A stretch of 64,000 nt of DNA from an uncultured Clostridia bacterium (lineage in GTDB: Bacteria; Bacillota_I; Bacilli_A; RF39; UBA660), in NCBI GenBank assembly GCA_945871105.1, contig CAMBUO010000002.1, positions 19,662 through 83,661 of the forward strand. The letters run 5' to 3'. The stretch's first letter is position 1, and each line of letters starts with the position of its first letter. The notes under the pieces are model-generated. The model saw only the letters and a program-made list of their open reading frames with translations, had not been told where the DNA came from and searched no databases. Both the position numbers and the translations under genes were made by a program. Of the stretch, positions 10,342 to 40,866 are shown piece after piece.

Positions 10342-10396
10342 ACCACCAATTGAAGTATACCACATCAAGTATCAAGATGCAATAACTTTTCCTTTC

Positions 10397-12210: not shown

Positions 12211-12235
12211 AATAGAGATTTTAATCATCTCTATT
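12211..12235 (-). terminator. Hairpin terminator overlapping the stop codon of the giant gene
   Basis: Stem AATAGAGAT / ATCTCTATT with a 7-nt loop, followed on the minus strand by a T-rich tract. Confidence 0.5.
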
Positions 12236-15200: not shown

Positions 15201-18200
15201 ATGTTTTAAAACAGTCGTTGTTCCCTCAATATTTAAATTAGTATTTCCAACAACATTAGCTGTTGTTCCGTTTCCTCCAGCATAAACGCTTTTTTTAACC
15301 ATCGGATTAGTTAATTTTAAATTCGTATTTTGTAAAACTTTAGCGGCATTTCCACCACCATAAACACTATCTTCAATGGTAGCTTCTTTGATGATAACAT
15401 TGGTATTTTGATTAACAAAACCAAGATTACCCCCACCATAGATAGAATTTCCAACAGTAGTATTATTATCAACTAATAAGTTAGTATTACCAATTACTTT
15501 AGCGGGATTTTGTTCTCCATTTGTATCACCGGTAACAACTGATTCTAAACCATTACCTCCACCATAAATAGAACCTGAGATATTAGAACTTGAAACCGTA
15601 ACATTGGTACTACCATTAATACCAGCTGACCTTCCTCCACCATAAATATCTTCGGAAGTCGTATTAGTAATTTTTAAAGTAGTTACCACATCAGATGTAG
15701 AGTTACCAACTGAAGCTTTATTTCCTCCACCATAAATACTATTAGTAATAGAAGAATCAGAAACCGATAAATTTACTGTTCCATTAATAGCTCCTAAATT
15801 ACCACCGGCATATAAGTTTCCTTTGATTGTGGTATTATTTAAAACTTTAGCAGTTACAGTATCTAAGATAGCTGCTTTATTACCACCACCATAAACACTA
15901 CCTTCCGTTTCATCATTACCAACCGTTACTTTATCTAAATTTAAATTAACCGTTGTAACACTAGCTTCATTACCACCACCGTAAATTGCTTCATTTACTA
16001 AAGCATTTTGAATATTAACATTAGTAGTTGTTGTAATTGCTTTATTACCTCCACCATAAATAACATCAATTAAACCACTAGTCATATTTAAATTAGTTGT
16101 TATGGTTGTTCCACCTTGATTATTTCCACCATACAAATTATAAACACGTAAATCGTCTTGTAAAGTTTTAAAATATTTATTACCCGATGCATCATAACCA
16201 ATAAAGACATAATTATAAATTTTATAATCTTCCAAAGGAACATAAGCATGAACATTAAAATTAAAGGAATAAGAAGAACCACTACTTAAAGGATTAGTTC
16301 CATAGTACTGATCAATTTCATCAATATGATAAATGCCATGACTTCCACTAACGTTAGCATCAGACCAGTTAGAATCAAATAAGCCATCACTCGTGTATAA
16401 ATATAAATCCCAAGTTGTTAAAGTTACGCCTGTTTTATTTAAAATACTAACATCGATTTGTTCACTGGAAGTAATACCGGTAGCTCCCGATTGATTTTGG
16501 TAAGACAGAGTATAACTAGTAGTAATTTCAATATCATTATTAGTTGTATTAGTTAAATTAGAAATTTGACTAGTAGTAACATCACCTAATATATTTGATC
16601 CACCAAAAACATTTTCAATTAAAGCATTTCCTAAACGAACATTAGTGGTATCAACACCAGCTTCACTTCCACCACCGTATAAATTGTTAATATAACCATA
16701 ATAAGCATTGATATTAGAAGTAGTCGTACTAGCCTTTAACCCTCCACCATATAGATTTGTTATATTTGATCCTTTAATATCAATATTGGATGTTGTAGTC
16801 GTTCCACCTTGATTATTTCCACCATAAACATTTAAAGCTCCCCCATTTGTGACAATAATATTGGAAACAGGAATTGTTCCATTTAAATTAGATCCGCCAA
16901 AAACATTCGTGGCATAAGAATTTAAGTTAACATTAGTATTAGTCGTAACACTAGTTTGTTCACCACCACCATAAACATTAGTAATGTTACCTCCATTAAT
17001 CGTTACATTGGTTACATCAGTAGTTCCCCCTTGATTGTTACCTCCATAAACATTAATAGATGTTCCTCCGGTTGTAATAACATTAGAAGTTGTAACTTCA
17101 CCTGTTAAATTAGAACCACCATAGATATTATCAGAAGAACCACCAATTAAATAAACATTGGTCGTATTAGCTGAGGTTTGATTTCCTCCACCAAAGGTAT
17201 TAGTGATAGTACCATTGTTAATATAAACTTCAATATTACCATTTGGCTTACCATTAGCATCATTTCCCCCATACACATTAGTGATAGTTCCTCCATTAAT
17301 TTGAACTTTAATATCTCCTTCCACATAAGGAACATAAGTATCATTTCCTTGGCCACCACCAAAAACATTGGTAATTAATCCTTTATTAACTATAACATTA
17401 GTATTACTTGATGATAAATTAGTGGTTTGAATAGTACCATTGACACTTCCATAAGCACTTCCACCATAAACAGTTTGATTAATAATTGGTACTTTATCAC
17501 TATCAGTTGATCCAATAGTTACTAAAATGTCATCACGAACAAAGGTACCAGGATTATTAGTATTCGAATAACCTCCTCTACCTCCTCCGTAAACCGAATT
17601 AGTTATTTCACCACCTATAACCGTGACATTTGTACTACCATAAATTGTTCCTTCTTCATTAGCACCACCATAAATAGAACCTAAAACATTTCCCCCATCC
17701 ATGTTAATTTCAATGGTAGATGTTTTCGATGCAGATCCTGATCCATTGTTGTTTCCACCACCATATACAGATCCTTCAACTAATCCATCATGAATAAATA
17801 TTTTAGAATAAGAAGTATTATTTTGGCTACTAACACCGGTAGCTCCAAAGTTTCCGCCACCATAAACATTTCTTTTAACAGTTGCTTTTTCATCAATAAT
17901 AATAATTGAATTATCAGCTGATCCGATGGTTGAATAACCTGATCTTCCATTACCAATTCCAAAGACGCTTCCAGCTTCCGAACCATGAATCGTGTTATTA
18001 TTTTCTACATAACTGGCGTTACCAATCGTAGCTGTTCCGCCTATATAAACATAAGGAGTTCCATTTAAAGTACCATCACCTTCACTACCATCAGCACCAT
18101 TTGATCCTCCAAAAACACTATAATTGACTGTACCACCTGTCACTTGAATAATACGATTTCCGTAAGTAGCAGTTGTTCCAGCTCCACCAATAATAGCATC

Positions 18201-20234: not shown

Positions 20235-20277
20235 TATTACTACCAACTTTCTTTCTAATTTTAATACTTTCTTTATA

Positions 20278-21267
20278 TTAATTTGGATTAGTAGATAATT
20301 GTAAATTTAAAGATATTTCTCCAACGGACGCATTATTTTCACAATCAACATCTTGACCTTCTAACCACATATAAACTCTTATTTTTGTTACTCCTTGATT
20401 AATAGAAAATACTTCTATATTTTCTTGAAAATTATTTTTCGTATAATAAGCTACGTTTACATTATCAAAATAAGTAGGATAATTATTCTTATTAGCTTTA
20501 TTAATTGATATTTTCAAATTATTTGGTATTTCTTGTTTAATACCATCATAAGGAACTGGATTAGAATTATTGGTAATATCAATTCCATACACATCTCTAG
20601 CATTACTAATTCCATATTCTGTATGGGTATCATAATTTGGTTCCCAAATGTAAACATCTTGATTATTATTAGTTTTCATTCCTTGCATCGTTTGAAGATC
20701 AGTACTTTGGGTACTACCTTCAATAACAAAGGCAAAACGAGTGGCATTTTCAATACCAACAGATCTATCTTTATAAGTTGCTCCAGAATCAGTTGTTAAA
20801 TATAAACTAGTTGGAGCATAAGTTTTAAGAAAAATATCAAAAGCTAAATATTTTTTATCACTATATTCAAATAAACTTCTTTCTTCTATTGTTTTAGTAG
20901 CCGTTAAATTATATTTATCGTTATAAATAGGATCATTTTCTGCTACTCCATAAAACATATCTAATAAGCCATTTGAAACATTACCAACTGTTGAAACCGG
21001 TTCTAAAACATTAGGTAATTGATTAATATTTTGGGGGTATTCATCAATAGCATTAGCTAAATCTAAAATACTTAAAACTGATTTCCAATTAGTTGCATCA
21101 CTTGATATCGATATACCATTTTGAGCTCTTATTTCAACATCCATTAAACCAATTGATACTAATCTATTAGATGTAAACCAAGCATAAGAAGAAGTACCTA
21201 AACTAATACCCAATACAAATAACCAAATTAAGAGAAAAAATAAACGATATTTTTTATTTTTATTCAT
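20278..21267 (-). CDS. Secreted protein with SipW-type signal peptide (AWFTSN family, W-x-EGxDxDCEN C-terminal motif)
   Basis: Start refined to MNKNKKYRLFF. The signal peptide ends in GTSSYAWFTSN. C-terminal motif VYMWLEGQDVDCENNASVGEISLNLQLS. About 45% identical by eye to 29177-30223. Confidence 0.65.
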   Translation of the reverse strand: MNKNKKYRLFFLLIWLFVLGISLGTSSYAWFTSNRLVSIGLMDVEIRAQNGISISSDATNWKSVLSILDLANAIDEYPQNINQLPNVLEPVSTVGNVSNGLLDMFYGVAENDPIYNDKYNLTATKTIEERSLFEYSDKKYLAFDIFLKTYAPTSLYLTTDSGATYKDRSVGIENATRFAFVIEGSTQSTDLQTMQGMKTNNNQDVYIWEPNYDTHTEYGISNARDVYGIDITNNSNPVPYDGIKQEIPNNLKISINKANKNNYPTYFDNVNVAYYTKNNFQENIEVFSINQGVTKIRVYMWLEGQDVDCENNASVGEISLNLQLSTNPN

Positions 21268-21982
21268 TTTTAACACCTTCTTGTTCTTTATGTTCTTCAC
21301 GAATTTCCATATGCATTTTAATTTCTCCACCAATTAAAGCATCAACACAATCTGGATCATCACCTTCTAACCAAATAACAACTGTAAATTTATCCTTATC
21401 ACTTGGTTTAAAATCTTTTCTTTGTTCTAAAATAATTTCTTTTTCTTTATTATCTAAAAAAACTTTTGTATCTTTCTCAGCTTCTTTAGTAGATGAGTTT
21501 ACTTTGGCATATATTTCTTTTTCTCCATTTAAATAAATCATTACTCGAACTGCTTCATCAACATTTTTAATAACATCATCAATAATAATTGAATACCAGT
21601 AATTAATATTTCTTTCACCTTTATTTTCTAGATAAAAAGTATAAGCAATATAATTTTCTCCATTATGTGATCCATCTTTTTCATTATCAATATCTTTTGG
21701 TAACCAATCAATTGAAATATTATCTAAAAAATCAATATTTTCAGCGTATAATTTACGAGTCTGATCATTTTGAAACTCTTCTGTTTCATATAAAATTATT
21801 CCACTTTTAAGAGCAAAATTATTATCCAAAGTTACTGTAAAACGACCACCATTATAAACTATACTTAAAATAATAAAAGAAAATATTAAAATTAATAAAA
21901 TAATAAATACTATTAATTTAGTTCTTTTATAAAACTTTTTACGTTTTTTAATCTTATCAGCTGTTATAACTACTTCTTTCAT
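21260..21982 (-). CDS. Membrane-anchored/secreted protein, distant member of the W-x-EGxDxDC family (first gene of module A)
   Basis: N-terminal basic stretch plus a TM helix (LIVFIILLILIFSFIILSIV). C-terminal VVIWLEGDDPDCVDALIGGEIKMHMEI parallels the motif in 20278-21267 and 29177-30223. Confidence 0.6.
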   Translation of the reverse strand: MKEVVITADKIKKRKKFYKRTKLIVFIILLILIFSFIILSIVYNGGRFTVTLDNNFALKSGIILYETEEFQNDQTRKLYAENIDFLDNISIDWLPKDIDNEKDGSHNGENYIAYTFYLENKGERNINYWYSIIIDDVIKNVDEAVRVMIYLNGEKEIYAKVNSSTKEAEKDTKVFLDNKEKEIILEQRKDFKPSDKDKFTVVIWLEGDDPDCVDALIGGEIKMHMEIREEHKEQEGVKNE

Positions 21983-22087
21983 ATCTTCTCCTTACTATAA
22001 TTCTATCATAGGTAATAATTATCTTCAATTAGTTTTAAAAAAATAATCTAAATAAGTGTCAAGTGTTAAAAAAATATTTTTCTTTTA

Positions 22088-22116
22088 TTGTTTACAACTA
22101 ACCTTTATGCTATAAT
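22088..22116 (+). promoter_or_regulatory. Putative sigma-A promoter with extended -10
   Basis: TTGTTT, 17-nt spacer, (TGc)TATAAT, located 19 nt upstream of the ATG at 22135. GGTGG SD in between. Confidence 0.5.
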
Positions 22117-22134
22117 TTTTATAGTAGGTGGATT

Positions 22135-22707
22135 ATGAAAAAGAAAATAATTATGGTATTAGCATTTACTTCTTTATTAATATCCTTTTGTTTTATAGGA
22201 GAATCATATGCTAAATATGTTACAACCATAGATAATGTTGCGTCGATGTCGGTTGCTAGATGGCGAATTTTAGTTAATAACAAAGATATTTTAAATGAAA
22301 GTGAAGCTAGGCAAATAATTACTCCTGTTTTTTATGAAAATGAACATATTAATGCAAATGTTATAGCTCCTACTAGTAAAGGATATTTTGATTTAATTTT
22401 AGATGCAACCGGAGCTGATGTTTCTTTTAATTATACAATTTCAACTTCTTTAAATGCTGATAGTGCTGTTTCAGATTTAAAAATAACTGGTTATACCTTA
22501 AATGAAGGTGAAGTTATAGCTATAACTGACGGTACTTTAATTACTGGTCAAATTTTATATACTGATAATAAGATTCATAATTTAAGAGTTTTTATTGAAT
22601 GGAGTGATACAGAAACAGATACAATGGATAATCAAGCTGATACCAATGCTAGAAATAAGCTTGCAAAATTAGATGTTAATTTACACTTTGTTCAAATTGC
22701 TAATTGA
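22135..22707 (+). CDS. Secreted TasA/camelysin-like protein with SipW-type signal peptide (only plus-strand gene of the cluster)
   Basis: Signal peptide ends in ...GESYAKYVTTID, then ARWRILVNN. C-terminal strand LDVNLHFVQIAN. Paralogue of 9210-9818. Confidence 0.6.
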   Translation: MKKKIIMVLAFTSLLISFCFIGESYAKYVTTIDNVASMSVARWRILVNNKDILNESEARQIITPVFYENEHINANVIAPTSKGYFDLILDATGADVSFNYTISTSLNADSAVSDLKITGYTLNEGEVIAITDGTLITGQILYTDNKIHNLRVFIEWSDTETDTMDNQADTNARNKLAKLDVNLHFVQIAN

Positions 22708-22729
22708 TTAGTTAAACTAATCTTTTTTT
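22706..22729 (+). terminator. Rho-independent terminator
   Basis: GATTAG-ttaaa-CTAATC followed by T7, overlapping the stop codon. Confidence 0.55.
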
Positions 22730-22732
22730 ATA

Positions 22733-22762
22733 AAAAGATTCAAATGAAAATTGAATCTTTTT
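22733..22762 (-). terminator. Hairpin terminator for module B (A/T flanked, could act in both directions)
   Basis: AAGATTCAA-atgaaaa-TTGAATCTT flanked by an A-run and a T-run, 3 nt downstream of the stop of the 22765-23388 gene. Confidence 0.55.
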
Positions 22763-22764
22763 AC

Positions 22765-23388
22765 TTAATTATTAGCTTGAATAGCTGTAACTTTAATAAC
22801 TAAAGTTATACTTTTACTATCTGGATTATTCTCGTGATAGATATAAGCTTTATGACCCCATTCAGTATCCAATTCATCATTACCTGACTCATAAGGCCAA
22901 ACTAAACTAAAATTAATTTGAGCAGTTCCACCATTTGCTACCATGTTACCATTTTCAATTGTTACTTTTAGTTTAAATGGATAATCATTTTCAATTTTTC
23001 TAGTAAGTTCATCGCTAGTTAAAGTATCAGAAACGACAAATTCTTCCCCTAAAATTGAAGCACTTACTATTTCATAACTTAAAGTAGCTGGAGTATCACT
23101 ATTATTAGTAGCTTTAATAGTTTGAAAAGAATCAGTCATACCTGGATAAACTGATTCAACATCAAAAGTTAAGGTTTCCTCAATATTATTATCACCAACG
23201 ATAAAATTAACATTCCATGACCTGACATGAGCTGTAATATTATTAGAAACTTTCGTAGCATAAATAAACCAAGCAAAAGAATTGCAAGACATTAAAATAG
23301 CTAAGAACAAAAGATTTCTTAATTTAATTCTTTTAAATAATTTTTGAAAGAAAATCCAAATATAAGACAATTTATTTTTTGGTTTCAA
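22765..23388 (-). CDS. Secreted TasA/camelysin-like protein with SipW-type signal peptide (module B, last gene)
   Basis: Signal anchor ends in ...SCNSFAWFIYATKV, then RSWNVNFIVGDNN. C-terminal strand ITLVIKVTAIQANN. Confidence 0.6.
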   Translation of the reverse strand: MKPKNKLSYIWIFFQKLFKRIKLRNLLFLAILMSCNSFAWFIYATKVSNNITAHVRSWNVNFIVGDNNIEETLTFDVESVYPGMTDSFQTIKATNNSDTPATLSYEIVSASILGEEFVVSDTLTSDELTRKIENDYPFKLKVTIENGNMVANGGTAQINFSLVWPYESGNDELDTEWGHKAYIYHENNPDSKSITLVIKVTAIQANN

Positions 23389-23412: not shown

Positions 23413-24060
23413 TTATTTCTTTTTTGGTATTGGTTCATCATCACATAGTATTTTTTTTTCTTTGGTATCTTCTTTTTTTTCTTTAGCTTCTTTTATTAAT
23501 TTTTTTTCTTTCATAATATCATTTATTTCAAAAAATAAAAGAATTGCAAAAGGAACAAAAATGATAAAATAAAACCCATAAGCATTATTTACAACATGAC
23601 TTAATAAACTAAGTAGAGTACTTTTTTTTAAAACTTTTCCTAAAATTTGATCATATTCTATTTCAGGATCTTCTACTTCATTAGCTAAACCTTTAGTTTG
23701 AAAAATATACTTACCATTTTTATATTCTTTTTTTATAACTTGGTGAGTAACAATTTTACCATTTAAATTAGACTCTTCACCTAAATAAACAACATCATCG
23801 CCAATTTTTATATCTTCTGCAACAACTTTTTTTGCAATTACCATATCTCTTATTTCATACTTTGGCACCATACTTTCACTGACAATAGTAAACATACTAT
23901 AACCAAATAAAGTTACTTTATTATCTGAAACCCTTTGAATAAAAATAATGGAAATAACAATTATTATTAAAGTAGATGTAATTGCTTTTAAACCAACAGC
24001 TATACCCTTAAATACTTTATTATTTATTATTTTTTCTATTCTTTTCACTTTAATCACCAC
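23413..24060 (-). CDS. sipW: SipW-type (ER/archaeal-type) signal peptidase I
   Basis: TM helix, Ser box FTIVSESMVPKYEIRDMVIAKK, His box IVTHQV, TKGLANEVEDPE, C-terminal TM helix and a short Lys/Glu tail. GTG start; the exact start is ambiguous (24060 or 24048). Overlaps the stop of the upstream gene. Confidence 0.75.
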   Translation of the reverse strand: MVIKVKRIEKIINNKVFKGIAVGLKAITSTLIIIVISIIFIQRVSDNKVTLFGYSMFTIVSESMVPKYEIRDMVIAKKVVAEDIKIGDDVVYLGEESNLNGKIVTHQVIKKEYKNGKYIFQTKGLANEVEDPEIEYDQILGKVLKKSTLLSLLSHVVNNAYGFYFIIFVPFAILLFFEINDIMKEKKLIKEAKEKKEDTKEKKILCDDEPIPKKK

Positions 24061-25178
24061 TACAATTTTATACTTCGAATTAAATTCAAGTATTCATCCA
24101 TATTCTTTTTAAATATTTTATATATTTCTTTATCATTAACAACTGTTTTATATTTAACAATACTATATTGTTTAGAGACAATATCTTTTAACTCTTCTTC
24201 TTTTAAATTACCTCCACTTAAATCCATAATTTTGGAAACCATATTAGAAACAATTTTTTCTGTTATCTCTTTTTTATCAGTTGTTTTTTCTTCATTACTT
24301 AAGGTATCTAAAACTAAATAATTTAAAAGAAAAGATTCATCCATGTATTTTTTTAAAGTACCAGTATCGTTATAATCTTTAGAATCATGACTTTTCTTAA
24401 TACCATCATCCATATTTTCTTGCATATAATTCCATAGCTTAACTGCATATTGAAAGTTAACATTTTTTAAAATAACATTAGTTTTTTTAATAGGAGAAGT
24501 TACTAGAGCAATATGTAATTTATGAATATCTTGATATACTTGCGAACAAGTTAAATCAGATATTTGTAATTCTAATCTTTCTATTCTTTTTAAAACATCT
24601 AAACCAGCTTCATTTTTATTAGCATTTTTTTCTTCTCTTTTACTATCTAACATAAGTTGTAGATTAACATGCTCAGATCCCATTTTACAATTTGCTGTAT
24701 AATTTATGCTTTTATTATCTTTTAAACTTGATTCAGTTATTAAATTTCTTTTTTTACGAGCTATATAAAATTTCATATTTTGAATTAAACTATAAATAAA
24801 ACGATTTTCATAAGTATTATAACTTTCTTCTTTATTTATATTTAATATTTTTGAAGGTTTAACATCTCCTGTTTTTTTATTATAATCTTGGATTAAATTA
24901 GTATTTCTTGATAAATGTTTAATACTTTCAACTGTAACTCTTCTAGCTAATTCTATTTTTACAACATCTTCTTCATTGACAATAAAACGATTCGGATTTC
25001 TTAAAATATTATCAATATAACGAATAGTATCTTCCATAATATCTAACCATTCATAGTTGCATTCAACTTTATCGTATTTACTAGTTACGTGTACATTTGA
25101 ATCTATTTTATTACTAAAAGAATCAATTGTTTTGCTGTTAGTTTGTTGATATAAATCAAATATTGTTAAATCATCCAT
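24060..25178 (-). CDS. McrC N-terminal/DUF2357-like protein with no recognisable nuclease domain
   Basis: 372 aa and cytoplasmic. The YNTYENRFIYSLIQNM motif resembles the conserved block of DUF2357/McrC-like partners of McrB ATPases. I found no PD-(D/E)xK-like D...(D/E)xK block in the C-terminal half. Confidence 0.45.
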   Translation of the reverse strand: MDDLTIFDLYQQTNSKTIDSFSNKIDSNVHVTSKYDKVECNYEWLDIMEDTIRYIDNILRNPNRFIVNEEDVVKIELARRVTVESIKHLSRNTNLIQDYNKKTGDVKPSKILNINKEESYNTYENRFIYSLIQNMKFYIARKKRNLITESSLKDNKSINYTANCKMGSEHVNLQLMLDSKREEKNANKNEAGLDVLKRIERLELQISDLTCSQVYQDIHKLHIALVTSPIKKTNVILKNVNFQYAVKLWNYMQENMDDGIKKSHDSKDYNDTGTLKKYMDESFLLNYLVLDTLSNEEKTTDKKEITEKIVSNMVSKIMDLSGGNLKEEELKDIVSKQYSIVKYKTVVNDKEIYKIFKKNMDEYLNLIRSIKL

Positions 25179-25190
25179 ATTTATCCCTTT

Positions 25191-26717
25191 CTATGTTAAT
25201 TTCTTAAGTCTTAGTAAGTATTCTTCACATTCTTTCATTTTTCCTTTTCCAAATAACTTATCTAAGAATTCAATATAACCATCTATTTCATCACGAATAT
25301 AGGAAATATTTAATTGTTCAAATTTTCTTAAGACTTTTCTAGCTAAGAAATAATCGACGCCATCAACTTCATCACCACCACAGGCAACATAAATAGGAAC
25401 AAATTTTTTCATATGCATAACAATACGGTTACCAAAGGCAATTCTAAAGTGTTTAATAACATAATTATCCATTTCTTCTATTTTATTTAAAACGTCTTCA
25501 GACATAGGATGTTCTTTAAAAGCTTCTTGAAATAATTTATCAAGATAAGAATAGTTAATATCTTGAGCTTCGGTTTCTATTGGTTCAAAGACTTGACCTT
25601 TATCGTTGATATCAATAGGCATAGCTCTATCGTATACTTTATCGGTTACCATGAAAGTTGAATCATCGTTATTGATAGTTCCAATATACCAAACATTAGG
25701 TGGTATTTTTATTTTACCTTCGATAATATGTTTAGGATCGTTTTTCCAAGAAGAAGATACAAGTTCAACAATCCATTCATCTTTATTAGGCATTTCAAGA
25801 ATTGATAACATTTCAGCAAAGTAATACTCAACACGAGAAATGTTCATTTCATCTAAAATAATAGTATAAACATCATCGGTATAACCAGCTAAATATAACT
25901 CTTTTAATACTTCCGTTTCATTAAATTTCTTTGTAAATTCATTAAAATAACCAAATAATTCGGTACGATCTCTCCACGATGGTTGAACAGAAGCAACACA
26001 AGAATCATGCTTTAAAAATTTTCCCCAAGCATAAGCAAGTGAAGTTTTACCAGTACCAGAAATACCTTGTAAAATAACCAGTTTTGTTGAAGCTAAAGCC
26101 GAGATAAATATTCTTATCATTTCTGTTTTATAATAAAGATGTAATTTACTAGCAGCAAAGTTTCTAAATAATTCTACTAATTCAGCCAAAGTAAAATTAT
26201 TATTATAGTTTTGAATTTTATAGTTTTTATAAGCTTCATCAATACTTGTAAGTTTAGAAAATCTTGAATCACTAGTATCAACTTTTTCTTCTTGTTCACC
26301 ACTTGCTTCTTCTACATCTTCTTCTCCTGGTTTAAGTCCTAAATGAGAAACTTTCATAGCTAAAATATCTTGCTTTTCTTTCATTAAATTAGCAACTTCT
26401 TGATTTAAAGTAGAAACTTCTTCTAATAAAGATTCTTGTTCGACTAAAGTCTTACGAAAACGTATATATTTTCTGATAATAAAATACCCTAAGAAAATAA
26501 TACCGGCTAGAACTAATACAATCAAAAGAATTGCTAAAGCAACAAACACCCATTCAGCTCCATTAAAATCATCTTTATAGAAATTAACAATAGAAATGTA
26601 TTCAGATACATTAAACATCTTTGTAATTCCTATAAATAAAGCTTTAAAAACATCAATTAAAGGTGAAAAAAATTGTAATAAAAATTCATATATAAATCTA
26701 AAAAATGTATCCATCAT
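25191..26717 (-). CDS. Membrane-anchored McrB-family AAA+ (AAA_5) NTPase
   Basis: N-terminal ~85 aa contain hydrophobic helices (FSPLIDVFKALFIGI; WVFVALAILLIVLVLAGIIFLGYFII), followed by a coiled coil and an acidic linker. The AAA+ core has Walker A LQGISGTGKTS, Walker B TIILDEMN, and WYIGTINNDDS...VYDRAMPI, as in McrB-type GTPases. Confidence 0.7.
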   Translation of the reverse strand: MMDTFFRFIYEFLLQFFSPLIDVFKALFIGITKMFNVSEYISIVNFYKDDFNGAEWVFVALAILLIVLVLAGIIFLGYFIIRKYIRFRKTLVEQESLLEEVSTLNQEVANLMKEKQDILAMKVSHLGLKPGEEDVEEASGEQEEKVDTSDSRFSKLTSIDEAYKNYKIQNYNNNFTLAELVELFRNFAASKLHLYYKTEMIRIFISALASTKLVILQGISGTGKTSLAYAWGKFLKHDSCVASVQPSWRDRTELFGYFNEFTKKFNETEVLKELYLAGYTDDVYTIILDEMNISRVEYYFAEMLSILEMPNKDEWIVELVSSSWKNDPKHIIEGKIKIPPNVWYIGTINNDDSTFMVTDKVYDRAMPIDINDKGQVFEPIETEAQDINYSYLDKLFQEAFKEHPMSEDVLNKIEEMDNYVIKHFRIAFGNRIVMHMKKFVPIYVACGGDEVDGVDYFLARKVLRKFEQLNISYIRDEIDGYIEFLDKLFGKGKMKECEEYLLRLKKLT

Positions 26718-27235
26718 TTACTCCTTAACAAAACATTACAATTCAAAGAATTATAATAAGTAAATAATTCTTGATTAGTAACTAATATAGCATCAAATAA
26801 TTCAAATCTTTTAATTTCTATATCATCAAATTCATATTTATCTTGAAAACAGATAACAAAATGAAAACCATCTTGAATTAAATCAATAATGTAATCTTTA
26901 TATTCTAAATAAAGATTATAATCAAATTCAATTAAAAACCTATCTTTTAAAATATCATTATCAATTAAATTTAAAAAACGTTTATTCTTATCTTCTTTAC
27001 TTAATAAAGTTATAGGATAAGTAACAATATATTTATTTTTAAAATCATAATTAATAAGACCATTTAAAACTTTTAAAGTAATTAAATTATAAAGAATAAA
27101 CATCTTCTGTTCATTAATAACTTCTGAGTTATAAACTCTTTTAATAGCAAAATTACTATAAATACTTGGAAAATTTATATTATATTCTAAAGTAGTATAA
27201 TAAATTTTATTATTAAGTTTTTCATATTTAACCAT
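26714..27235 (-). CDS. Hypothetical cytoplasmic protein (173 aa)
   Basis: ORF whose stop overlaps the start of the McrB-like gene by 4 nt. No SD before the ATG, and the frame stays open 40 codons upstream. No reliable domain call. Confidence 0.45.
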   Translation of the reverse strand: MVKYEKLNNKIYYTTLEYNINFPSIYSNFAIKRVYNSEVINEQKMFILYNLITLKVLNGLINYDFKNKYIVTYPITLLSKEDKNKRFLNLIDNDILKDRFLIEFDYNLYLEYKDYIIDLIQDGFHFVICFQDKYEFDDIEIKRFELFDAILVTNQELFTYYNSLNCNVLLRSK

Positions 27236-27321
27236 GAATTTATTAGTTTTAAAACTTTTTAAATAATTAATTCTTCTTTTTTTATTATCATGAACTAAAG
27301 TAATTAATTCTTCTTTAGTAT

Positions 27322-27657
27322 CTAGTTCTTTGTTATATAACTTATAATATATATTTCATCTTGAATATTATCAAGAATTAAAATATTATAAACTAAATTA
27401 TTTAATAACTTAAATTGTTTTTGATCATATTTAGAAAAACTAATAAATTCTTTTAAATTATTTTTTAAATTATTATTAATTGATTGTTTAATTTGTAAAT
27501 TATTTTCATTATAATAGTTATAATATCTAATCTCATGATATTTTTTTATAATAACTTGGATATCTTTGATTTTTAACTTATTTTTAAAGATTAATTTAAA
27601 ATATTTTGTTAAAGTTTTGGAAGAAAAATCAAGATATTTTTCAATTATATTATTCAT
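27322..27657 (-). CDS. Hypothetical cytoplasmic protein (111 aa)
   Basis: ORF starting 8 nt after the stop of 27666-28574, with GGAGG SD. Lys/Asn-rich. No domain recognised. Confidence 0.45.
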   Translation of the reverse strand: MNNIIEKYLDFSSKTLTKYFKLIFKNKLKIKDIQVIIKKYHEIRYYNYYNENNLQIKQSINNNLKNNLKEFISFSKYDQKQFKLLNNLVYNILILDNIQDEIYIISYITKN

Positions 27658-27665: not shown

Positions 27666-28574
27666 CTAACTTTGGAATGTTATAATCGATGTTGGATTAG
27701 TAATTGGATAAGTATAATTTTGACTAGTATCTACTTTATAAAATTTTACTACTTCACTGGATATAGCATCTATTTTAAAAGTAATACTATTAACGTATTG
27801 ATAATTATTAATAGTTGTTAATGTTTCATTTGTCTTTTTTAAATAAGCAGGACTAGTCATATCAAGAGCAACAATAGTTGGATCAAAAGTTAAAGTAATT
27901 AGAGCCGACGTACATTTATTTTTTTGCTCGTCTGTTAAAGTTAGATAAGTATCTACATTTATTTTATCTCCTACTTGATAAGTATCAAAAGCTTCATCAA
28001 CTAAATAATAATCTAAAGTATTAGTTATATTAAAATTTAAATAAGGACTACCTACTTCATCATCAATTGCATAAGATAAGCCACTATAACCTACATTTAA
28101 TATAAAACGAGCACTTATTTCTTTTTTATAAGGACTAGTTGATTTAGCTTTAACTTCTAAAAAAGCACTATCACCTTCAGATAAAGTTCCATTAGGAGTA
28201 ATTACAGCTTGAAATGAATCATGATTAGTTGAAGATAAAACTGTACCAGAAGACTTAGATAATTGACATGTAACATTACTAGAACATACATAAGTTAATT
28301 CATAAGCAATATCATATGGACAAGTTTCATAATTATTTAAATAACTATTTAAATCTATTAGAATGCTATATTCTGAAACTGCTGACCAGTTCTCAATTTG
28401 ATAAATTGGCCTGTTAAGATCTAATTTATCACTATTAAAATAAAACTTTTTGGTTAATAAATAACGCTCATTAATAGCATTATAAATATATCTACCATAA
28501 GTAACGCCAATTAAAAGAAAAGTTAAAGAAATAGAAATAATAATAGGAACAATAATTTTTTTATTTTTTTTCAT
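27666..28574 (-). CDS. Secreted beta-rich protein with SipW-type signal peptide (302 aa)
   Basis: Signal anchor IIVPIIISISLTFLLIGVTYGRYIYNAI. Overlaps the upstream pseudo-peptidase gene by 14 nt, the same coupling seen in module A. Confidence 0.6.
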   Translation of the reverse strand: MKKNKKIIVPIIISISLTFLLIGVTYGRYIYNAINERYLLTKKFYFNSDKLDLNRPIYQIENWSAVSEYSILIDLNSYLNNYETCPYDIAYELTYVCSSNVTCQLSKSSGTVLSSTNHDSFQAVITPNGTLSEGDSAFLEVKAKSTSPYKKEISARFILNVGYSGLSYAIDDEVGSPYLNFNITNTLDYYLVDEAFDTYQVGDKINVDTYLTLTDEQKNKCTSALITLTFDPTIVALDMTSPAYLKKTNETLTTINNYQYVNSITFKIDAISSEVVKFYKVDTSQNYTYPITNPTSIITFQS

Positions 28575-29073
28575 GTTTCTTTTTCCTAACTTCCGTAATA
28601 AATAAATATAATTCTAAGATAAATAATATTAAAATAGGTAAAATAATTAAAAATAAGTATCCCCATTTAGAAGTTAAAACACTAATAATTCCACCTAGAA
28701 AAGCAATACTTTTTACATCTTTTTGATTACCAATAACATAGTTATCTAAAATATGATAACTAGAACTACCTACAATAAAAGTTTTAGGATTATCAATAAT
28801 ATCAGCTACTTTATTACTTTCTATTACAATATCACTGGAATAAGTATTATAATAAATTATTTTATCCCCTACTTTTATGTTATCAATATTTTTTTTAACA
28901 ATTAATAAACTATTCCTTGAATAACCTGATAAATCAGTTTTTTTAGGAACTAATAAAGTATTATTACCAATAACGGTTACTCCATAATCATTATAATTAA
29001 TCAATAAAATTGTAATTGGAATTGTAATTATTACATAAAATACAATCAAAATATTAACTATCATTCTCTTCAT
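28561..29073 (-). CDS. Catalytically degenerate SipW-like pseudo-peptidase (paralogue of 9808-10341)
   Basis: N-TM and C-TM layout. NYNDYG and SKWGYLFLIILPILILF are shared with 9808-10341. The Ser-box position reads VPKKTDLSGYSRNSLLIV (no GSMxP), and the His box is absent (KVADIID). Confidence 0.6.
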   Translation of the reverse strand: MKRMIVNILIVFYVIITIPITILLINYNDYGVTVIGNNTLLVPKKTDLSGYSRNSLLIVKKNIDNIKVGDKIIYYNTYSSDIVIESNKVADIIDNPKTFIVGSSSYHILDNYVIGNQKDVKSIAFLGGIISVLTSKWGYLFLIILPILILFILELYLFITEVRKKKHEKK

Positions 29074-29137
29074 ACTACCACCATTATAAGTATAACATAG
29101 GAAATATTTAAAGTAAATAAATGATATCTAATAATGT

Positions 29138-29164
29138 AAAAAAAAAGATGTTTTTTGACATCTT
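29138..29164 (-). terminator. Rho-independent terminator after the 29177-30223 gene
   Basis: On the minus strand: AAGATGT-caaaaa-ACATCTT followed by T9. Confidence 0.6.
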
Positions 29165-29176
29165 TTAATGACTTGT

Positions 29177-30223
29177 CTAAGGAGTTGGAAGAGTTGTTGT
29201 GAATTGAAGATCGTAATTAATATTTCCACCAGAAGCAGTATTTTCACAATCAACATCTTGACCTTCTACCCACATATAAATTCTTACTTTAGTTACTCCA
29301 GCTGTTAAACCAAATATTTGAGTATAATCAGCATTTGCAGCCTTAGTTTTATAAGTAGAAGTTACAGCTTTAAATTTTTCACTATGTTGAGTAGCATTAG
29401 CTTCTCCTACTTTAACGGTATCAACATCTATTGGAGCTAGTATACCATCGTAATCAACACGTGCAGCATCAGGACCTTCAGTAATAGTTAATGTATAAGT
29501 ATCACGTGCATGACTAATTGCATTTTTTGTATGAACATCATAGTTTGGTTCCCATAAATATACAGGAGATGAAGCAGCACCAGTTGTTCCCAAAGCTTGA
29601 ATTTTATCAACGGTATCATCAAGTGTTGTATTCCCTAACATAACAAAGGCAACACGACTAGCATTTTTAATACCTGTATCATTGGCATCAGCAGTAACAG
29701 CTGAACTTGGAGTCATATATAAATTTGTTGATGTATCAGATTTAACAAATAAATCAAAAGCAATAAATTTACCATCCGTTCCATTAGTTTCAGTAGACTT
29801 AGTAGCACTTAAATACCAATCACCGGTAGCATTAGCAGCAACTTGTCCATAGAACATTTCCATAAGACCATCATTTCCTACAGTTAAAGCAGATGAAACC
29901 GGTTCCAAAGAACTTGGCAATTGATTTTTAGCTCCAGTATATTTACCAGATGCAGTTTTAATATCAGTTGTTTGAATAATTGATTTCCAATTAGTACCAT
30001 CTACTGAAACTTGAATACCATTTTGAGCAGCAATATTAACAGTAATTGTATTAACTGCTACTGTTTGATTTGATGTAAACCATGCATAGGTTGATGTTGT
30101 TAACATAATACCTGTTCCAAATAACAATAGTAATAGGAACATTAAATGTCTTTTTCTTTTTTTCTTATTTTTTTCAATAACTAAAGTAATTTCATCACGA
30201 TCTTTGTTTTCATTTTCTTTCAT
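29177..30223 (-). CDS. Secreted protein with SipW-type signal peptide (AWFTSN family); apparently monocistronic, candidate major subunit
   Basis: Start refined to MKENENK, with AGAGGTG SD. The signal ends in TTSTYAWFTSNQ. C-terminus VRIYMWVEGQDVDCENTASGGNINYDLQFTT. Has its own promoter and terminator. Richer in Ala/Gly/Thr than its neighbours. Confidence 0.7.
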   Translation of the reverse strand: MKENENKDRDEITLVIEKNKKKRKRHLMFLLLLLFGTGIMLTTSTYAWFTSNQTVAVNTITVNIAAQNGIQVSVDGTNWKSIIQTTDIKTASGKYTGAKNQLPSSLEPVSSALTVGNDGLMEMFYGQVAANATGDWYLSATKSTETNGTDGKFIAFDLFVKSDTSTNLYMTPSSAVTADANDTGIKNASRVAFVMLGNTTLDDTVDKIQALGTTGAASSPVYLWEPNYDVHTKNAISHARDTYTLTITEGPDAARVDYDGILAPIDVDTVKVGEANATQHSEKFKAVTSTYKTKAANADYTQIFGLTAGVTKVRIYMWVEGQDVDCENTASGGNINYDLQFTTTLPTP

Positions 30224-30251
30224 TTTAAACACCTCTCTTATTTTCAATTTA

Positions 30252-30280
30252 ATAATAGCATAAAAAAAAAATGCTTTCAA
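30252..30280 (-). promoter_or_regulatory. Putative sigma-A promoter of 29177-30223 with a T10 tract in the spacer
   Basis: On the minus strand: TTGAAA, 17-nt spacer (gcaT10atgc), TATTAT. The final tgc of the spacer gives an extended -10 (TGnTATTAT). Confidence 0.5.
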
Positions 30281-30309
30281 CAATTTACAACATATTTTTT
30301 TTACTTTAC

Positions 30310-30334
30310 AAAAAAAATTGACACTTAGTGTCAA
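30310..30334 (-). terminator. Terminator of htpG-hsp20 (perfect palindrome TTGACACT-T-AGTGTCAA plus T8)
   Basis: The hairpin lies 6 nt after the hsp20 stop and is followed by a T8 run on the minus strand. Confidence 0.6.
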
Positions 30335-30339
30335 TTAAT

Positions 30340-38375: not shown

Positions 38376-39215
38376 TTATTTATTAAAATCTTCAATAATT
38401 TTTAAAATCTTCTTAATTTCTAGAATACTTTCTTTATCTTGATACTTAACTTTAATTAATTCTAAAGTATTACAATCTTTTTTTAAATGATGATATTTCT
38501 TAACTAACTTATCTTTCACAATAACAATTGATTCTTCATCAGTTATAAAATGATTACTATTAACATTCATAATTCCATAAATATTAACCTGATTAATTCT
38601 ATTTCTAATTCTTTTAAGATATTTATTTAATCCAGAATTTACTAAACTTTCATAGATAAGCATACTATATAAAACATTCTCGATATCTTTATTCTTAACC
38701 TTAATTAAATAACTATATCTATTTTTAAACTTAGCATAGTTTAAAATAACATATTCTTTAAAATGCTTATCATAATTATTTTTAATTATCTTTTTATCTT
38801 TAATATTACTATTTTTAAATAATTGATATAAATAAAGAATAACTAAAACCCAAATAAAGTTTTTAAACTCATTAATATTAAAAAAAGCATTATCAACCGG
38901 TAATAAATAAAAATTATAAATAATTAAACCTATAATAAAAGTAATTAAAATATTTTTAAAATAAATGCTATCTTCTATTAAACTTTCTTTTTGAGATAAA
39001 ACATAAGTATTAATAATATCAAATAATAAATATAAAATAAGAATAATTAAAGTATAGTTTTTTAAACTAGTAAATACTGATGCAACAAGAATTAGATAAA
39101 TATTTGGAAATAAATAAATTAAACTATCTTCCTTAGTTTTATTTTTAATCACTTCCATCATAATAAATAATAATAAAGCTAATAATATTTCATAAATAAC
39201 AATAAAAAAATTCAT
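38376..39215 (-). CDS. Hypothetical polytopic membrane protein
   Basis: 279 aa. Four or five hydrophobic helices in the N-terminal half and a soluble C-terminal half. No motif recognised. Confidence 0.5.
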   Translation of the reverse strand: MNFFIVIYEILLALLLFIMMEVIKNKTKEDSLIYLFPNIYLILVASVFTSLKNYTLIILILYLLFDIINTYVLSQKESLIEDSIYFKNILITFIIGLIIYNFYLLPVDNAFFNINEFKNFIWVLVILYLYQLFKNSNIKDKKIIKNNYDKHFKEYVILNYAKFKNRYSYLIKVKNKDIENVLYSMLIYESLVNSGLNKYLKRIRNRINQVNIYGIMNVNSNHFITDEESIVIVKDKLVKKYHHLKKDCNTLELIKVKYQDKESILEIKKILKIIEDFNK

Positions 39216-39302
39216 AATAACCCCCTTAAGAATAGTTATTATTCTATCATAATTTAAAAAAAATACAAGTCAATAATTTATAATTATATTTTTTTCCTTT
39301 TA

Positions 39303-39309
39303 TTCGACA
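39303..39309 (-). promoter_or_regulatory. Spo0A box upstream of spoIIGA
   Basis: TTCGACA on the plus strand is the reverse complement of the consensus 0A box TGTCGAA. It sits ~45 nt upstream of the spoIIGA ATG. The B. subtilis spoIIG promoter depends on Spo0A. Confidence 0.45.
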
Positions 39310-39352
39310 AAATAATCCTTAGTAATGAGATAAACTAAATGAGGTGATTAAA

Positions 39353-40818: not shown

Positions 40819-40866
40819 TTGACAATATCTTTTTTTACGTATAAGATATTATTGGTTGGTGTTCTT

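What the first reader, a model, noticed from the sequence alone, without database searches (positions are those of the whole stretch)
24060..27657. Four-gene cassette with a membrane-anchored McrB-family AAA+ NTPase and a nuclease-less McrC/DUF2357-like partner, spliced into the sipW operon
Seen in sequence: in module A the four genes pseudo-SipW, TasA-like, SipW and TasA-like are contiguous. In module B the same series is interrupted, between 27666-28574 and sipW at 23413-24060, by four extra genes of 111, 173, 508 and 372 aa.

The 508-aa protein has an McrB-type AAA+ core (GISGTGKTS, IILDEMN, IGTINNDDS, VYDRAMPI). The DNA-reading N-terminal domain of classical McrB is replaced by 2-3 TM helices, a coiled coil and an acidic linker.

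The 372-aa partner carries a YNTYENRFIYSLI block like DUF2357/McrC N-domains. I can find no PD-(D/E)xK nuclease motif in it.

Stop/start overlaps (26714-26717 and 24060) and 8-13 nt gaps link most of the cassette to its flanking fibre genes. The exception is an 86-nt gap between the 111-aa and 173-aa ORFs.

Inference, two competing readings: (a) an McrBC-derived AAA+ motor recruited for membrane extraction, secretion or assembly of the fibre; (b) a novel membrane-associated McrBC-like defence or abortive-infection cassette that landed inside a surface-structure operon. Either would be new.
Basis: partly seen in the sequence, partly recalled or inferred. Interest (0 to 1): 0.85.

Follow-up and report, generated by a model that had tools for sequence, protein, structure and literature searches.

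The report
Membrane GTPase module in pilus locus
A restriction-enzyme-type (McrBC) GTPase pair that has lost its nuclease and gained a membrane anchor is a deeply conserved part of a signal-peptidase/surface-fibre gene cluster in small-genome gut Bacilli, a system type named "CoCoPALM" in 2024 but never characterised.

Summary
The 508-aa protein is a membrane-anchored McrB-family GTPase. The 372-aa protein is a DUF2357/McrC homolog with no detectable nuclease.

Three corrections:
- The 111-aa and 173-aa ORFs are one ~325-aa gene broken here by a 34-bp deletion. It is intact in conspecific contigs and about 70 other species. The cassette therefore has three genes, and the third has a degenerate EAL-like fold.
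- Nothing was "spliced in". The same gene order occurs in all 80 species loci examined. The GTPase is the best-conserved gene there (median 77% identity against 35-58% for its neighbours).
- It is not wholly new. Bell et al. (eLife 2024) named this architecture CoCoPALM, in two sentences.

Of 80 distant metagenomic relatives, 74 sit beside SipW-like peptidases and 38 beside true EAL proteins (some GGDEF-EAL). Two fuse SipW to the 325-aa homolog. No full-length relative was found in phage, plasmid or viral collections.

Best reading: a non-defence GTPase module that powers or gates SipW-dependent fibre assembly, possibly under c-di-GMP-type control. The mechanism is inferred.

The parts
26714..27657 (-). 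Gene for a ~325-aa protein with an EAL-like fold, disrupted here. The fragments are 27322-27657 (111 aa, N-terminal helical domain) and 26714-27235 (173 aa, C-terminal alpha/beta domain). A 34-bp deletion at about 27356/27357 shifts the frame.
   Evidence: Single ~325-aa ORF in 70/78 species loci and in conspecific contigs L084-L087. Deletion mapped. AF2 model of the intact conspecific protein has pLDDT 89 and pTM 0.87. The top 21 Foldseek PDB hits are all EAL domains; the best is FimX EAL, E 7e-3, prob 1.0. There is no Pfam EAL hit and hhalign is not significant.
25191..26717 (-). Membrane-anchored McrB-family GTPase of the NxD type (508 aa; other gene callers start at the second Met, giving 507 aa).
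   Evidence: PDB phmmer and profile searches hit only E. coli McrB. PADLOC PDC-M26A E 3e-34 over the AAA+ part. 71-89% identity across 80 species.
26472..26552 (-). Transmembrane helix (residues about 56-82), followed by a positively charged cytoplasmic flank.
   Evidence: Kyte-Doolittle maximum 3.39 over 19 residues. The sequence RKYIRFRK directly follows it.
26268..26471 (-). Heptad-like (coiled-coil) stalk, residues 83-122, and acidic linker, residues 123-150.
   Evidence: Sub-threshold FtsL hits at residues 57-132. Sequence read directly. Stalk mean column identity 0.81 in orthologs. No dedicated coiled-coil predictor was run.
25593..26117 (-). AAA+ GTPase core. Walker A is at 26040-26066, Walker B at 25842-25862, and the N349-x-D351 motif at 25665-25673.
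   Evidence: Invariant in 80 orthologs. G218/G221/G223/K224/T225, D289, N349 and D351 are also invariant in a 30-sequence family alignment reaching down to 32% identity.
24060..25178 (-). McrC-like partner (372 aa). The DUF2357 N-domain lies at 24726-25097. The C-terminal half is helical and has no nuclease.
   Evidence: Pfam DUF2357 E 1.9e-13. AF2 pLDDT 70; residues 195-372 are mostly helices with one hairpin. No significant Foldseek or PDB hits. No conserved D...(D/E)xK among the invariant columns.
23413..24060 (-). SipW-type signal peptidase. It carries the catalytic motifs SESM61 and THQ105 and a K/E-rich cytoplasmic tail. Its start overlaps the partner's stop.
   Evidence: TIGR02228 scores 74 bits against a cut-off of 51.85. 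Motifs found.
27666..30334 (-). Upstream genes of the same transcription unit: an AWF-motif secreted protein (29177-30334, whose true start is probably further downstream), a pseudo-SipW lacking the catalytic Ser/His (28561-29073), and a 302-aa secreted protein (27666-28574).
   Evidence: Synteny is conserved in the 80 loci. Motifs absent. No terminator-like site lies between 30316 and 14335 on the - strand.
12231..23388 (.). Downstream conserved genes of the locus: a 207-aa secreted protein (22765-23388, -), a 190-aa protein on the opposite strand (22135-22707, +), a 240-aa protein (21260-21982, -), a 351-aa AWF-motif protein (20278-21333, -), and a 2671-aa giant surface protein (12231-20246, -).
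   Evidence: The same order is seen in most of the 80 loci. The 240-, 351- and 385-aa proteins share the C-terminal WLEGxDxDC motif.

Best explanation
This is a CoCoPALM-type module: an McrBC restriction motor exapted as a cytoplasmic-face component of a SipW-dependent surface-fibre system. It is not a defence cassette.

Shown here:
- An NxD-type McrB GTPase with an N-terminal TM helix and stalk.
- A DUF2357 (McrC N-domain) partner without a nuclease.
- A third gene for a protein with a degenerate EAL-like fold.
- All three are tightly packed with sipW and AWF-motif secreted-protein genes. They are vertically conserved across at least 80 (probably 166) species and also in distant lineages.

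Inferred mechanism:
1. The GTPase forms a hexameric ring hung under the membrane by its TM and coiled-coil stalks.
2. The DUF2357 domain inserts into the ring pore and stimulates GTP hydrolysis, as in McrBC.
3. With no nuclease to drive, the GTPase cycle is transmitted mechanically to the co-encoded SipW peptidase and pseudo-peptidases. Transmission would run through the stalks or the partner's helical C-domain.
4. This powers or gates the processing, polymerisation or anchoring of the secreted fibre subunits.
5. The EAL-like protein supplies c-di-GMP-type regulation or scaffolding. In other lineages its place is taken by a true EAL or GGDEF-EAL protein, and in two loci it is fused to the cytoplasmic end of SipW.
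6. In this particular genome that third gene is broken by a 34-bp deletion.
For: - Family identity: McrB is the only PDB family hit. N349-x-D351 is invariant and position 352 is D/E/Q, which is the NxD clade of Bell et al.. DUF2357 is above the Pfam threshold.
- TM anchor and weak FtsL-like hits.
- Literature: CoCoPALM is defined as exactly this architecture plus a signal-peptidase association.
- Conservation: 166 species hits, and the best 80 all show the same gene order. Median identity is 76.7% for the GTPase against 35-58% for neighbours, and 88-89% against 80% for HtpG in the three closest species. Catalytic motifs are invariant.
- Distant relatives: DUF2357 in 75/80, SipW-like in 74/80, AWF-motif proteins in 50/80 and EAL in 38/80 (Pfam check). 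Individual loci L081, L083, L088, L091, L093 and L096 agree.
- Fusion of SipW with the 325-aa homolog immediately upstream of the GTPase in L130 and L173.
- EAL-like fold of the 325-aa protein.
- No full-length relative in the phage, plasmid or viral collections.
Against: - No experiment exists on any member. Hexamer formation, partner insertion and GTPase stimulation are extrapolated from E. coli and Thermococcus McrBC.
- The fibre nature of the neighbours is itself inferred. There is no sequence link to TasA.
- TasA-type fibres are known to assemble outside the cell without an NTPase, so the need for a motor is unexplained.
- The EAL assignment rests on weak Foldseek E-values (7e-3 and worse) plus context. 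Catalytic residues are absent, and profile comparison with true EALs is not significant.
- The third gene is inactivated in this genome, and the same split allele occurs elsewhere (P0271), so it is dispensable at least in some strains.
- The GTPase domain scores strongly against a PADLOC defence-candidate model.
Confidence: 0.6

Rival explanations
1. Regulatory switch rather than motor. The membrane-tethered GTPase and its partner act as a nucleotide-dependent checkpoint. For example, they might sense envelope or c-di-GMP state and license SipW activity or fibre-gene expression, without doing mechanical work on the fibre.
For: Recurrent EAL and GGDEF-EAL neighbours. EAL-like third gene. Fusion of SipW with the EAL-like domain. 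TasA-type fibres need no external energy for polymerisation (established knowledge; PMC9674648, listed).
Against: AAA+ rings of the McrB type are processive motors in every characterised case. The very strong conservation of the whole AAA+ core (0.93 mean column identity) and of the stalk suits a mechanical device at least as well. No DNA-binding or signalling output domain is present.
Confidence: 0.2
2. Membrane-associated McrBC-like defence or abortive-infection system that guards the fibre. The fibre would be a likely phage receptor, and the system would respond to phage attack at the membrane.
For: The GTPase belongs to the NxD clade shared with the predicted-defence CoCoNuT systems. PADLOC PDC-M26A hit, E 3e-34. 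One relative (L090) lies next to a prophage lysis cassette.
Against: No nuclease or other effector is present. The position is fixed and inheritance is vertical in 80/80 loci. Conservation is higher than for HtpG. The partner and third gene have no PADLOC hits. No full-length relative occurs on phages, plasmids or viral contigs. No defence genes are among the conserved neighbours.
Confidence: 0.1
3. Cell-division or envelope function unrelated to the fibre, suggested by the FtsB/FtsL-like TM and coiled-coil segment. Under this view the gene neighbourhood would be coincidental.
For: Sub-threshold FtsL hits at residues 57-132. Bell et al. call the domain FtsB-like.
Against: The coiled coil follows the TM helix on the same (cytoplasmic) side as the GTPase, whereas in FtsB/FtsL it is outside the cell. 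The SipW association holds in 74/80 distant loci, with translational coupling. No division genes are nearby.
Confidence: 0.05

Closest known systems
[quoted passage not shown]
   Same: NxD-type McrB-like GTPase fused to a TM plus coiled-coil (FtsB-like) N-terminus. An adjacent McrC/DUF2357 homolog. A tight association with signal-peptidase-family genes.
   Different: The McrC homolog here is short (372 aa) and lacks the long coiled coil the paper calls usual. Distant relatives of 620-670 aa do have one. The paper does not mention the EAL / EAL-like partner, the SipW-EAL-like fusion, the AWF-motif cargo proteins, or core-gene status in small-genome gut Bacilli. Its promised follow-up was not found in the library.
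Canonical McrBC type IV restriction (E. coli McrB/McrC; PDB 6hz4, 6ut6)
   Same: AAA+ GTPase core with Walker A/B and a sensor Asn motif. A partner with the DUF2357 N-domain, which in McrBC plugs the hexamer pore and stimulates GTP hydrolysis.
   Different: No DNA-binding N-domain; a TM anchor takes its place. NxD instead of NxxD. No PD-(D/E)xK nuclease. Vertically inherited inside a surface-structure locus rather than patchy and mobile.
CoCoNuT systems (CnuB/CnuC)
   Same: Same NxD GTPase clade. A coiled coil N-terminal to the GTPase. McrC homologs often lack an active nuclease.
   Different: CoCoNuTs are soluble, carry long coiled coils, and are always accompanied by separate nucleases (HEPN and others). 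Here there is a TM anchor and no nuclease gene in the conserved neighbourhood.
FimX-PilB control of type IV pilus assembly (degenerate EAL c-di-GMP receptor acting on an assembly ATPase)
   Same: The best structural matches of the 325-aa protein are FimX EAL domains. In both cases a degenerate EAL-fold protein is encoded or acts next to a hexameric NTPase of a surface-filament system.
   Different: This is an analogy only. There is no sequence homology, c-di-GMP binding is untested, and the NTPase and filament types are unrelated.
sipW-tasA-tapA (B. subtilis) and sipW-bsaABC (C. perfringens) fibre operons
   Same: A SipW-type peptidase is encoded with secreted proteins that carry the SipW-type signal-peptide motif, with several paralogous subunits in one locus.
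   Different: Those operons contain no NTPase. The subunits here show no detectable sequence similarity to TasA.

Membership tests
CoCoPALM (Bell et al. 2024) | McrB-like GTPase with the shortened NxD signature motif | tested here: met
   N349 and D351 are invariant. Position 352 varies D/E/Q across relatives down to 32% identity. NNDDST is invariant in 80 orthologs.
CoCoPALM (Bell et al. 2024) | GTPase fused N-terminally to an FtsB-like TM plus coiled-coil domain | tested here: inconclusive
   There is a strong TM helix at residues 56-82 and a heptad-like segment at 83-122. Only sub-threshold FtsL hits were found (E 0.009 and 0.02), and no dedicated coiled-coil or topology predictor was available. 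The architecture fits; homology to FtsB is not shown.
CoCoPALM (Bell et al. 2024) | Association with signal-peptidase-family genes | tested here: met
   sipW (TIGR02228, 74 bits, above the cut-off) overlaps the partner's stop. Found in 79/80 close loci and 74/80 distant loci.
CoCoPALM (Bell et al. 2024) | Adjacent McrC (DUF2357) homolog, usually also carrying a coiled coil | tested here: met
   DUF2357 E 1.9e-13, with a 12-nt gap to the GTPase gene. The 'usual' long coiled coil is absent from this 372-aa version but present in 620-670-aa relatives.
Canonical McrBC restriction system | McrC C-terminal PD-(D/E)xK nuclease | tested here: not met
   No nuclease Pfam, NCBIfam or PADLOC hit. No PDB hit. 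The AF2 C-half is helical and Foldseek finds nothing significant. No conserved D...(D/E)xK among the invariant columns.
Canonical McrBC restriction system | N-terminal DNA-binding specificity domain on McrB | tested here: not met
   Residues 1-150 consist of a hydrophobic helix, a TM helix, a stalk and an acidic linker. No DNA-binding family hit.
Canonical McrBC restriction system | AAA+ GTPase core homologous to McrB | tested here: met
   McrB is the only PDB family hit, at E 3.7e-4 and E 6.4e-5 with the profile. Pfam AAA_5 itself did not reach E 0.1.
Anti-phage defence system (generic: patchy, mobile, island-associated) | Sporadic distribution, variable context, presence on mobile elements | tested here: not met
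   Context is the same in 80/80 species loci. No full-length relatives in phages, plasmids or IMG/VR. Phage resistance itself cannot be tested with these tools.
CoCoNuT | Soluble coiled-coil GTPase plus tandem nuclease genes | tested here: not met
   A TM anchor is present. None of the conserved neighbours is a nuclease.
EAL domain (PF00563), for the 325-aa protein | Match to the EAL sequence profile and conserved catalytic residues | tested here: not met
   No Pfam hit in 7 orthologs of the 325-aa protein. hhalign probability 0.1. The invariant residues (F152, S179, E194, K196, Y221, G275, F299) do not include the metal-binding set.
EAL domain (PF00563), for the 325-aa protein | EAL-type barrel fold | tested here: inconclusive
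   The model is confident (pLDDT 89). The top 21 Foldseek hits are all EAL domains with probability 0.54-1.0, but E is only 7e-3 to 0.3 and TM only 0.25-0.49. Context supports the assignment: true EALs occupy equivalent positions in relatives.
TasA / camelysin family, for the flanking secreted proteins | Sequence homology to TasA or a SipW-cognate signal-peptide model | tested here: not met
   No Pfam hit. TIGR04088 scores only 14.5 bits against a cut-off of 19. The family profile finds nothing in PDB or NCBIfam. Only the ...YAWFT motif and the SipW linkage support the label.

The most novel reading that the evidence does not exclude
The locus encodes a previously uncharacterised class of filament-biogenesis machine. 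A GTP-driven hexameric ring derived from a restriction motor would be tethered under the membrane and wired to SipW-type peptidases and pseudo-peptidases. It would actively drive or gate the assembly (or retraction) of donor-strand-type surface fibres, under c-di-GMP control through EAL-derived partners. That would add a new energised pathway alongside the chaperone-usher, type IV, sortase and curli systems. It would also be the first demonstrated non-defence job for an McrBC module.
Probability: 0.35. Interest if true: 0.85.

Novelty: new member of a known kind. Interest (0 to 1): 0.6.

Why it matters
- McrBC-type motors are known only as nucleic-acid-directed immune devices. A nuclease-less, membrane-tethered version kept as one of the best-conserved genes of a surface-structure locus argues for exaptation into cell-surface biology.
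- SipW/TasA-type fibres are thought to self-assemble without energy. A dedicated GTPase plus c-di-GMP-type partners would change that picture for a large group of Bacillota.
- The carriers are abundant, uncultured, small-genome gut Bacilli whose surface structures are unknown.
- Practically, defence-annotation pipelines could mislabel this GTPase, because it hits a PADLOC candidate model.
- The published description is two sentences long. The features mapped here give concrete, testable hypotheses: core-gene status, the EAL link, the fusion of SipW with the EAL-like protein, the cargo-protein motifs, and a natural loss allele of the third gene.

Tried and rejected
- A homolog search with the 173-aa fragment returned only one near-identical 173-aa protein. 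It gave no alignment but showed that the split allele recurs.
I obtained accepted ids through exact cluster look-ups instead.
- The EAL hypothesis could not be confirmed at sequence level: Pfam, hhalign and a PDB profile search were all negative.
- The DUF2357 partner has no PDB sequence hit, even with a profile. Foldseek on its pLDDT-70 model gave only noise, such as CapZ and TolC. The only conclusion is 'no recognisable nuclease fold'.
- PHROGs gave nothing meaningful.
- The promoter scan found 144 sites against 145 expected, so it is uninformative in this AT-rich DNA. Only the absence of terminator-like sites inside the unit is noted.
- A literature search for PDC-M26 found nothing. The 'McrB' mention in the C. 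perfringens sipW paper is only an E. coli strain genotype.
- A motif search for GGDEF in the window found nothing. Whether this organism makes c-di-GMP is unknown.
- A profile of the AWF-motif proteins found no TasA or other structure or family.
- I rejected the idea of a decaying relic, because the catalytic motifs are invariant in 80 species.
- The multi-TM GTPase relatives (for example P0162, L097) occur as stand-alone pairs without SipW. I treat them as a separate subfamily.

Full report
**Observation**

The region 23.4-27.7 kb holds, on the - strand, ORFs of 111, 173, 508 and 372 aa followed by a 215-aa ORF, exactly as reported. The junctions are tight:
- a 4-nt overlap at 26714-26717;
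- a 12-nt gap between the 508-aa and 372-aa genes;
- a 1-nt overlap with the 215-aa gene at 24060;
- an 8-nt gap upstream of the 111-aa ORF.

The DNA is about 22-28% G+C here, so ORFs of 372 and 508 codons cannot arise by chance. All of them are conserved elsewhere.

**The 508-aa protein**

Among solved structures it matches only the AAA+ domain of E. coli McrB. The single sequence gives E 3.7e-4 over residues 194-366. A 30-member family profile gives E 6.4e-5, with no other family below 0.01. It also scores 3e-34 against the PADLOC candidate model PDC-M26A, over the AAA+ part only. Pfam AAA_5 did not reach E 0.1.

Walker A (GISGTGKTS, 218-226), Walker B (IILDEMN) and INNDDST are invariant in 80 orthologs. 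In relatives down to 32% identity the invariant residues are N349 and D351, and position 352 is D, E or Q (NNDDS, NHDES, NKDDS, NRDES, NSDQS). This is the shortened 'NxD followed by D/E' signature that Bell et al. use to define the CoCoNuT-like branch of McrB GTPases.

Hydropathy shows one strong TM helix (about residues 56-82) followed by RKYIRFRK. This places the stalk and the GTPase in the cytoplasm. There is also one weak amphipathic helix at residues 12-31. Residues 83-122 are heptad-like and draw sub-threshold FtsL hits. Residues 123-150 are acidic.

**The 372-aa protein**

It hits Pfam DUF2357, the McrC N-terminal domain, at E 1.9e-13 over residues 28-151. Nothing else was found:
- no nuclease family;
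- no PDB sequence hit, even with a 59-sequence profile.

The AF2 model has pLDDT 70. It is low-confidence at residues 67-118, where the McrC 'finger' would be (my reading). The C-terminal half is mostly helical with one hairpin. Foldseek finds nothing significant. The invariant columns of the family contain no D...(D/E)xK pattern. The 'nuclease-less McrC' description therefore holds, within the limits of a mediocre model.

**The 111-aa and 173-aa ORFs are one broken gene**

In 70 of 78 species loci the ortholog is a single ORF of about 325 aa that abuts the GTPase start. Four contigs of the same species, whose GTPase is 100% identical, carry an intact 325-aa gene. Orthologs align to the 111-aa frame and then to the 173-aa frame. 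A DNA alignment shows a 34-bp deletion in the window at about 27356/27357. A 99%-identical 173-aa product exists in two other contigs, so the allele is real and recurrent. The cassette has three genes, and in this genome the first is probably inactive or expressed in halves.

The intact protein models confidently (pLDDT 89, pTM 0.87). It has an N-terminal six-helix domain and a C-terminal alpha/beta domain. Its top 21 PDB fold matches are all EAL domains, led by the degenerate c-di-GMP receptor FimX (E 7e-3, prob 1.0, TM 0.36-0.49). Sequence-level tests for EAL are negative and the catalytic residues are not conserved. I call it a degenerate EAL-like fold, moderately supported.

**Not an insertion**

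A scan of one genome per GTDB species found 166 relatives. The best 80 are 71-89% identical and come from uncultured gut Bacilli, variously labelled Tenericutes, Mollicutes or Erysipelotrichaceae. One closed MAG among them is 1.26 Mb.

In all 80 loci the order is the same: pseudo-SipW, 302-aa protein, 325-aa gene, GTPase, DUF2357 partner, SipW, 207-aa protein. Where the contig allows, these are followed by the 190-aa gene on the opposite strand, the 240-aa protein, the 351-aa protein and the giant protein.

Median identity to the window:

| Gene | Median identity |
|---|---|
| GTPase | 76.7% |
| 240-aa protein | 57.8% |
| DUF2357 partner | 54.7% |
| SipW | 48.6% |
| 302-aa protein | 47.3% |
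| AWF-motif proteins | about 44% |
| 325-aa gene | 35% |

In the three closest species the GTPase (88-89%) is better conserved than HtpG (80%). This is the pattern of a core machine component, not of a mobile defence gene.

**Distant relatives**

Representatives with the same N-terminal architecture, at 34-51% identity, were looked up individually.
- L081: secreted protein, SipW, GTPase, true EAL (Pfam 3e-53), DUF2357.
- L083, L088, L091, L093 and L096: similar, with SipW-like peptidases and AWF-motif proteins.
- L093: also has GGDEF and EAL genes.

A metagenome scan with a family alignment returned 80 further loci at 33-48% identity to the alignment's first sequence. I classified them with HMMs built here:

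| Feature | Loci (of 80) |
|---|---|
| DUF2357 partner | 75 |
| SipW-like peptidase | 74 |
| AWF-motif proteins | 50 |
| 240-aa-like proteins | 48 |
| EAL | 38 |

Many of these loci are redundant, but several distinct gene orders are represented. Pfam confirmed EAL and GGDEF-EAL in a sample of the EAL calls.

In L130 and L173 a single ORF immediately upstream of the GTPase fuses two parts. The first is a complete SipW-type peptidase (TM, catalytic domain with the SxSM/THR motifs, TM). The second is a full-length homolog of the 325-aa protein (E 1e-42 and 1e-38). This fusion places the EAL-like domain on the cytoplasmic side of SipW and argues for a physical complex.

Full-length relatives are absent from 50,697 phage records, 72,556 plasmids and 2.9 million viral contigs. 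Only GTPase-domain matches appear there.

**What is known**

[quoted passage not shown] Coiled coils are usually present on both McrB and McrC homologs. They name these systems CoCoPALM and defer analysis to a future paper. A search for the name found only that paper and its preprint, and a related search found nothing further.

The window's module meets the defining features I could test. The exceptions are that FtsB homology is only sub-threshold and that its McrC homolog is the short form. It fails the defining features of canonical McrBC (DNA-binding domain, nuclease, NxxD) and of CoCoNuTs (soluble, tandem nucleases).

**Mechanism (inferred)**

By analogy with McrBC structures, I propose the following chain.
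1. The GTPase forms a hexamer.
2. The DUF2357 N-domain enters the hexamer pore and stimulates hydrolysis.
3. The ring hangs below the membrane on six TM/coiled-coil stalks. The partner has no nuclease and the system is welded to SipW peptidases and pseudo-peptidases. The most economical output is therefore a GTP-driven conformational cycle.
4. That cycle powers or gates the processing, polymerisation or anchoring of the co-encoded secreted subunits.
5. The SipW proteins here carry K/E-rich cytoplasmic tails. Together with the fusion of SipW with the EAL-like protein, these are candidate contact points.
6. The recurrent EAL and GGDEF-EAL genes suggest c-di-GMP control, in the manner of FimX acting on the type IV pilus ATPase. 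Ligand binding by the degenerate 325-aa protein is untested.

Caveats:
- The 'fibre' is inferred from the ...YAWFT signal-peptide motif, the shared C-terminal WLEGxDxDC motif and the SipW linkage. No homology to TasA could be shown.
- Known TasA fibres need no NTPase.

**Rivals**

| Rival | Confidence | Comment |
|---|---|---|
| Nucleotide-dependent regulatory switch rather than a motor | 0.2 | Cannot be excluded |
| Membrane defence system guarding a phage-receptor fibre | 0.1 | Fits the family's ancestry and the PADLOC hit, but not the distribution, the conservation or the lack of an effector |
| Division-related role | 0.05 | Fits only the weak FtsL resemblance |

**Verdict**

Interpretation (a) is favoured over (b). 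The thing is a new member of a named but uncharacterised kind.

Its interest lies in three points. It may be the first non-defence role for an McrBC module. It hints at an energised, c-di-GMP-linked pathway for SipW-dependent fibres.

Noticed in passing
window 28561-29073 (-) and 9808-10368 (-): Two SipW-like membrane proteins (170 and 186 aa) lack both the SxSM serine motif and the TH(R/Q) histidine motif. The 170-aa one is nevertheless found, in position, in 67 of the 80 species loci, and its 186-aa paralog recurs in many of them. They look like pseudo-peptidases kept for a structural role.
   Followed up: partly
window 8319-9197 (-): The module-A SipW (292 aa, TIGR02228 76.6 bits) has a C-terminal cytoplasmic tail of about 130 aa rich in Lys/Glu. 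The sipW next to the GTPase pair has a shorter tail of the same kind, and SipW-like proteins in distant CoCoPALM loci also have charged tails.
   Followed up: partly
L130:5095-6990 and L173:6051-7997: A single ORF fuses a complete SipW-type peptidase to a full-length homolog of the 325-aa EAL-like protein, immediately upstream of the McrB-like GTPase.
   Followed up: yes
L069:4-1725; L092:1170-11585: Some genomes carry extra copies. L069 has a second, diverged GTPase/DUF2357 pair about 8 kb upstream. L092 has two tandem pairs next to a 3176-aa protein. L092 also has a 1095-aa glycoside-hydrolase-3 protein whose C-terminus weakly resembles the GTPase.
   Followed up: no
L090:721-8267: One relative (40% identity, with a 380-aa homolog of the third gene and a 324-aa partner) lies directly downstream of a phage-like block: DUF859, a holin, and a 251-aa gene with no Pfam hit that reads like an endolysin. 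The contig ends before any SipW gene could be seen.
   Followed up: no
L097:2899-6741: A subfamily whose GTPase has a multi-pass membrane N-terminus (615 aa) occurs as a stand-alone pair with a 663-aa partner, among metabolic genes and without SipW.
   Followed up: no
window 20278-21333, 21260-21982, 29177-30334 (-): The 351-, 240- and 385-aa secreted proteins share a C-terminal motif, (V/I)(W/Y)(L/V)EGxDxDC. This motif recurs in the equivalent proteins of loci at only about 35% GTPase identity. The family has no Pfam, NCBIfam or PDB match.
   Followed up: partly
window 30316-30336 (-) and 29177-30334: A terminator-like hairpin with a T-run lies between the hsp20 gene and the 385-aa ORF, inside that ORF's annotated 5' end. 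The TTG start at 30334 is therefore probably over-extended. The transcription unit likely starts near 30250; a promoter-like site with a TG extension lies at 30280-30252.
   Followed up: no
window 12231-20246 (-): The 2671-aa ORF has many Gly/Asn-rich repeats (GGxN type) and a single N-terminal hydrophobic segment. Its DNA is richer in G+C (0.29-0.34) than the surroundings (0.20-0.25). It is conserved downstream of the locus in many species.
   Followed up: no
window 22135-22707 (+): A 190-aa gene with an N-terminal signal-like segment sits on the opposite strand in the middle of the locus. It keeps that position and orientation in nearly all of the species loci where it is seen (L062 is an exception), and it splits the cluster into two transcription units.
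   Followed up: no
L012:11538-12690; L080:11856-12686: In two species representatives (Clostridium sp. CAG:628 and a Clostridiales MAG) the DUF2357 partner appears split or truncated while the GTPase is intact.
   Followed up: no
window 39000-41300: GC skew flips sign for about 2 kb, where three + strand genes (39344-41202) interrupt an otherwise almost uniformly - strand window.
   Followed up: no
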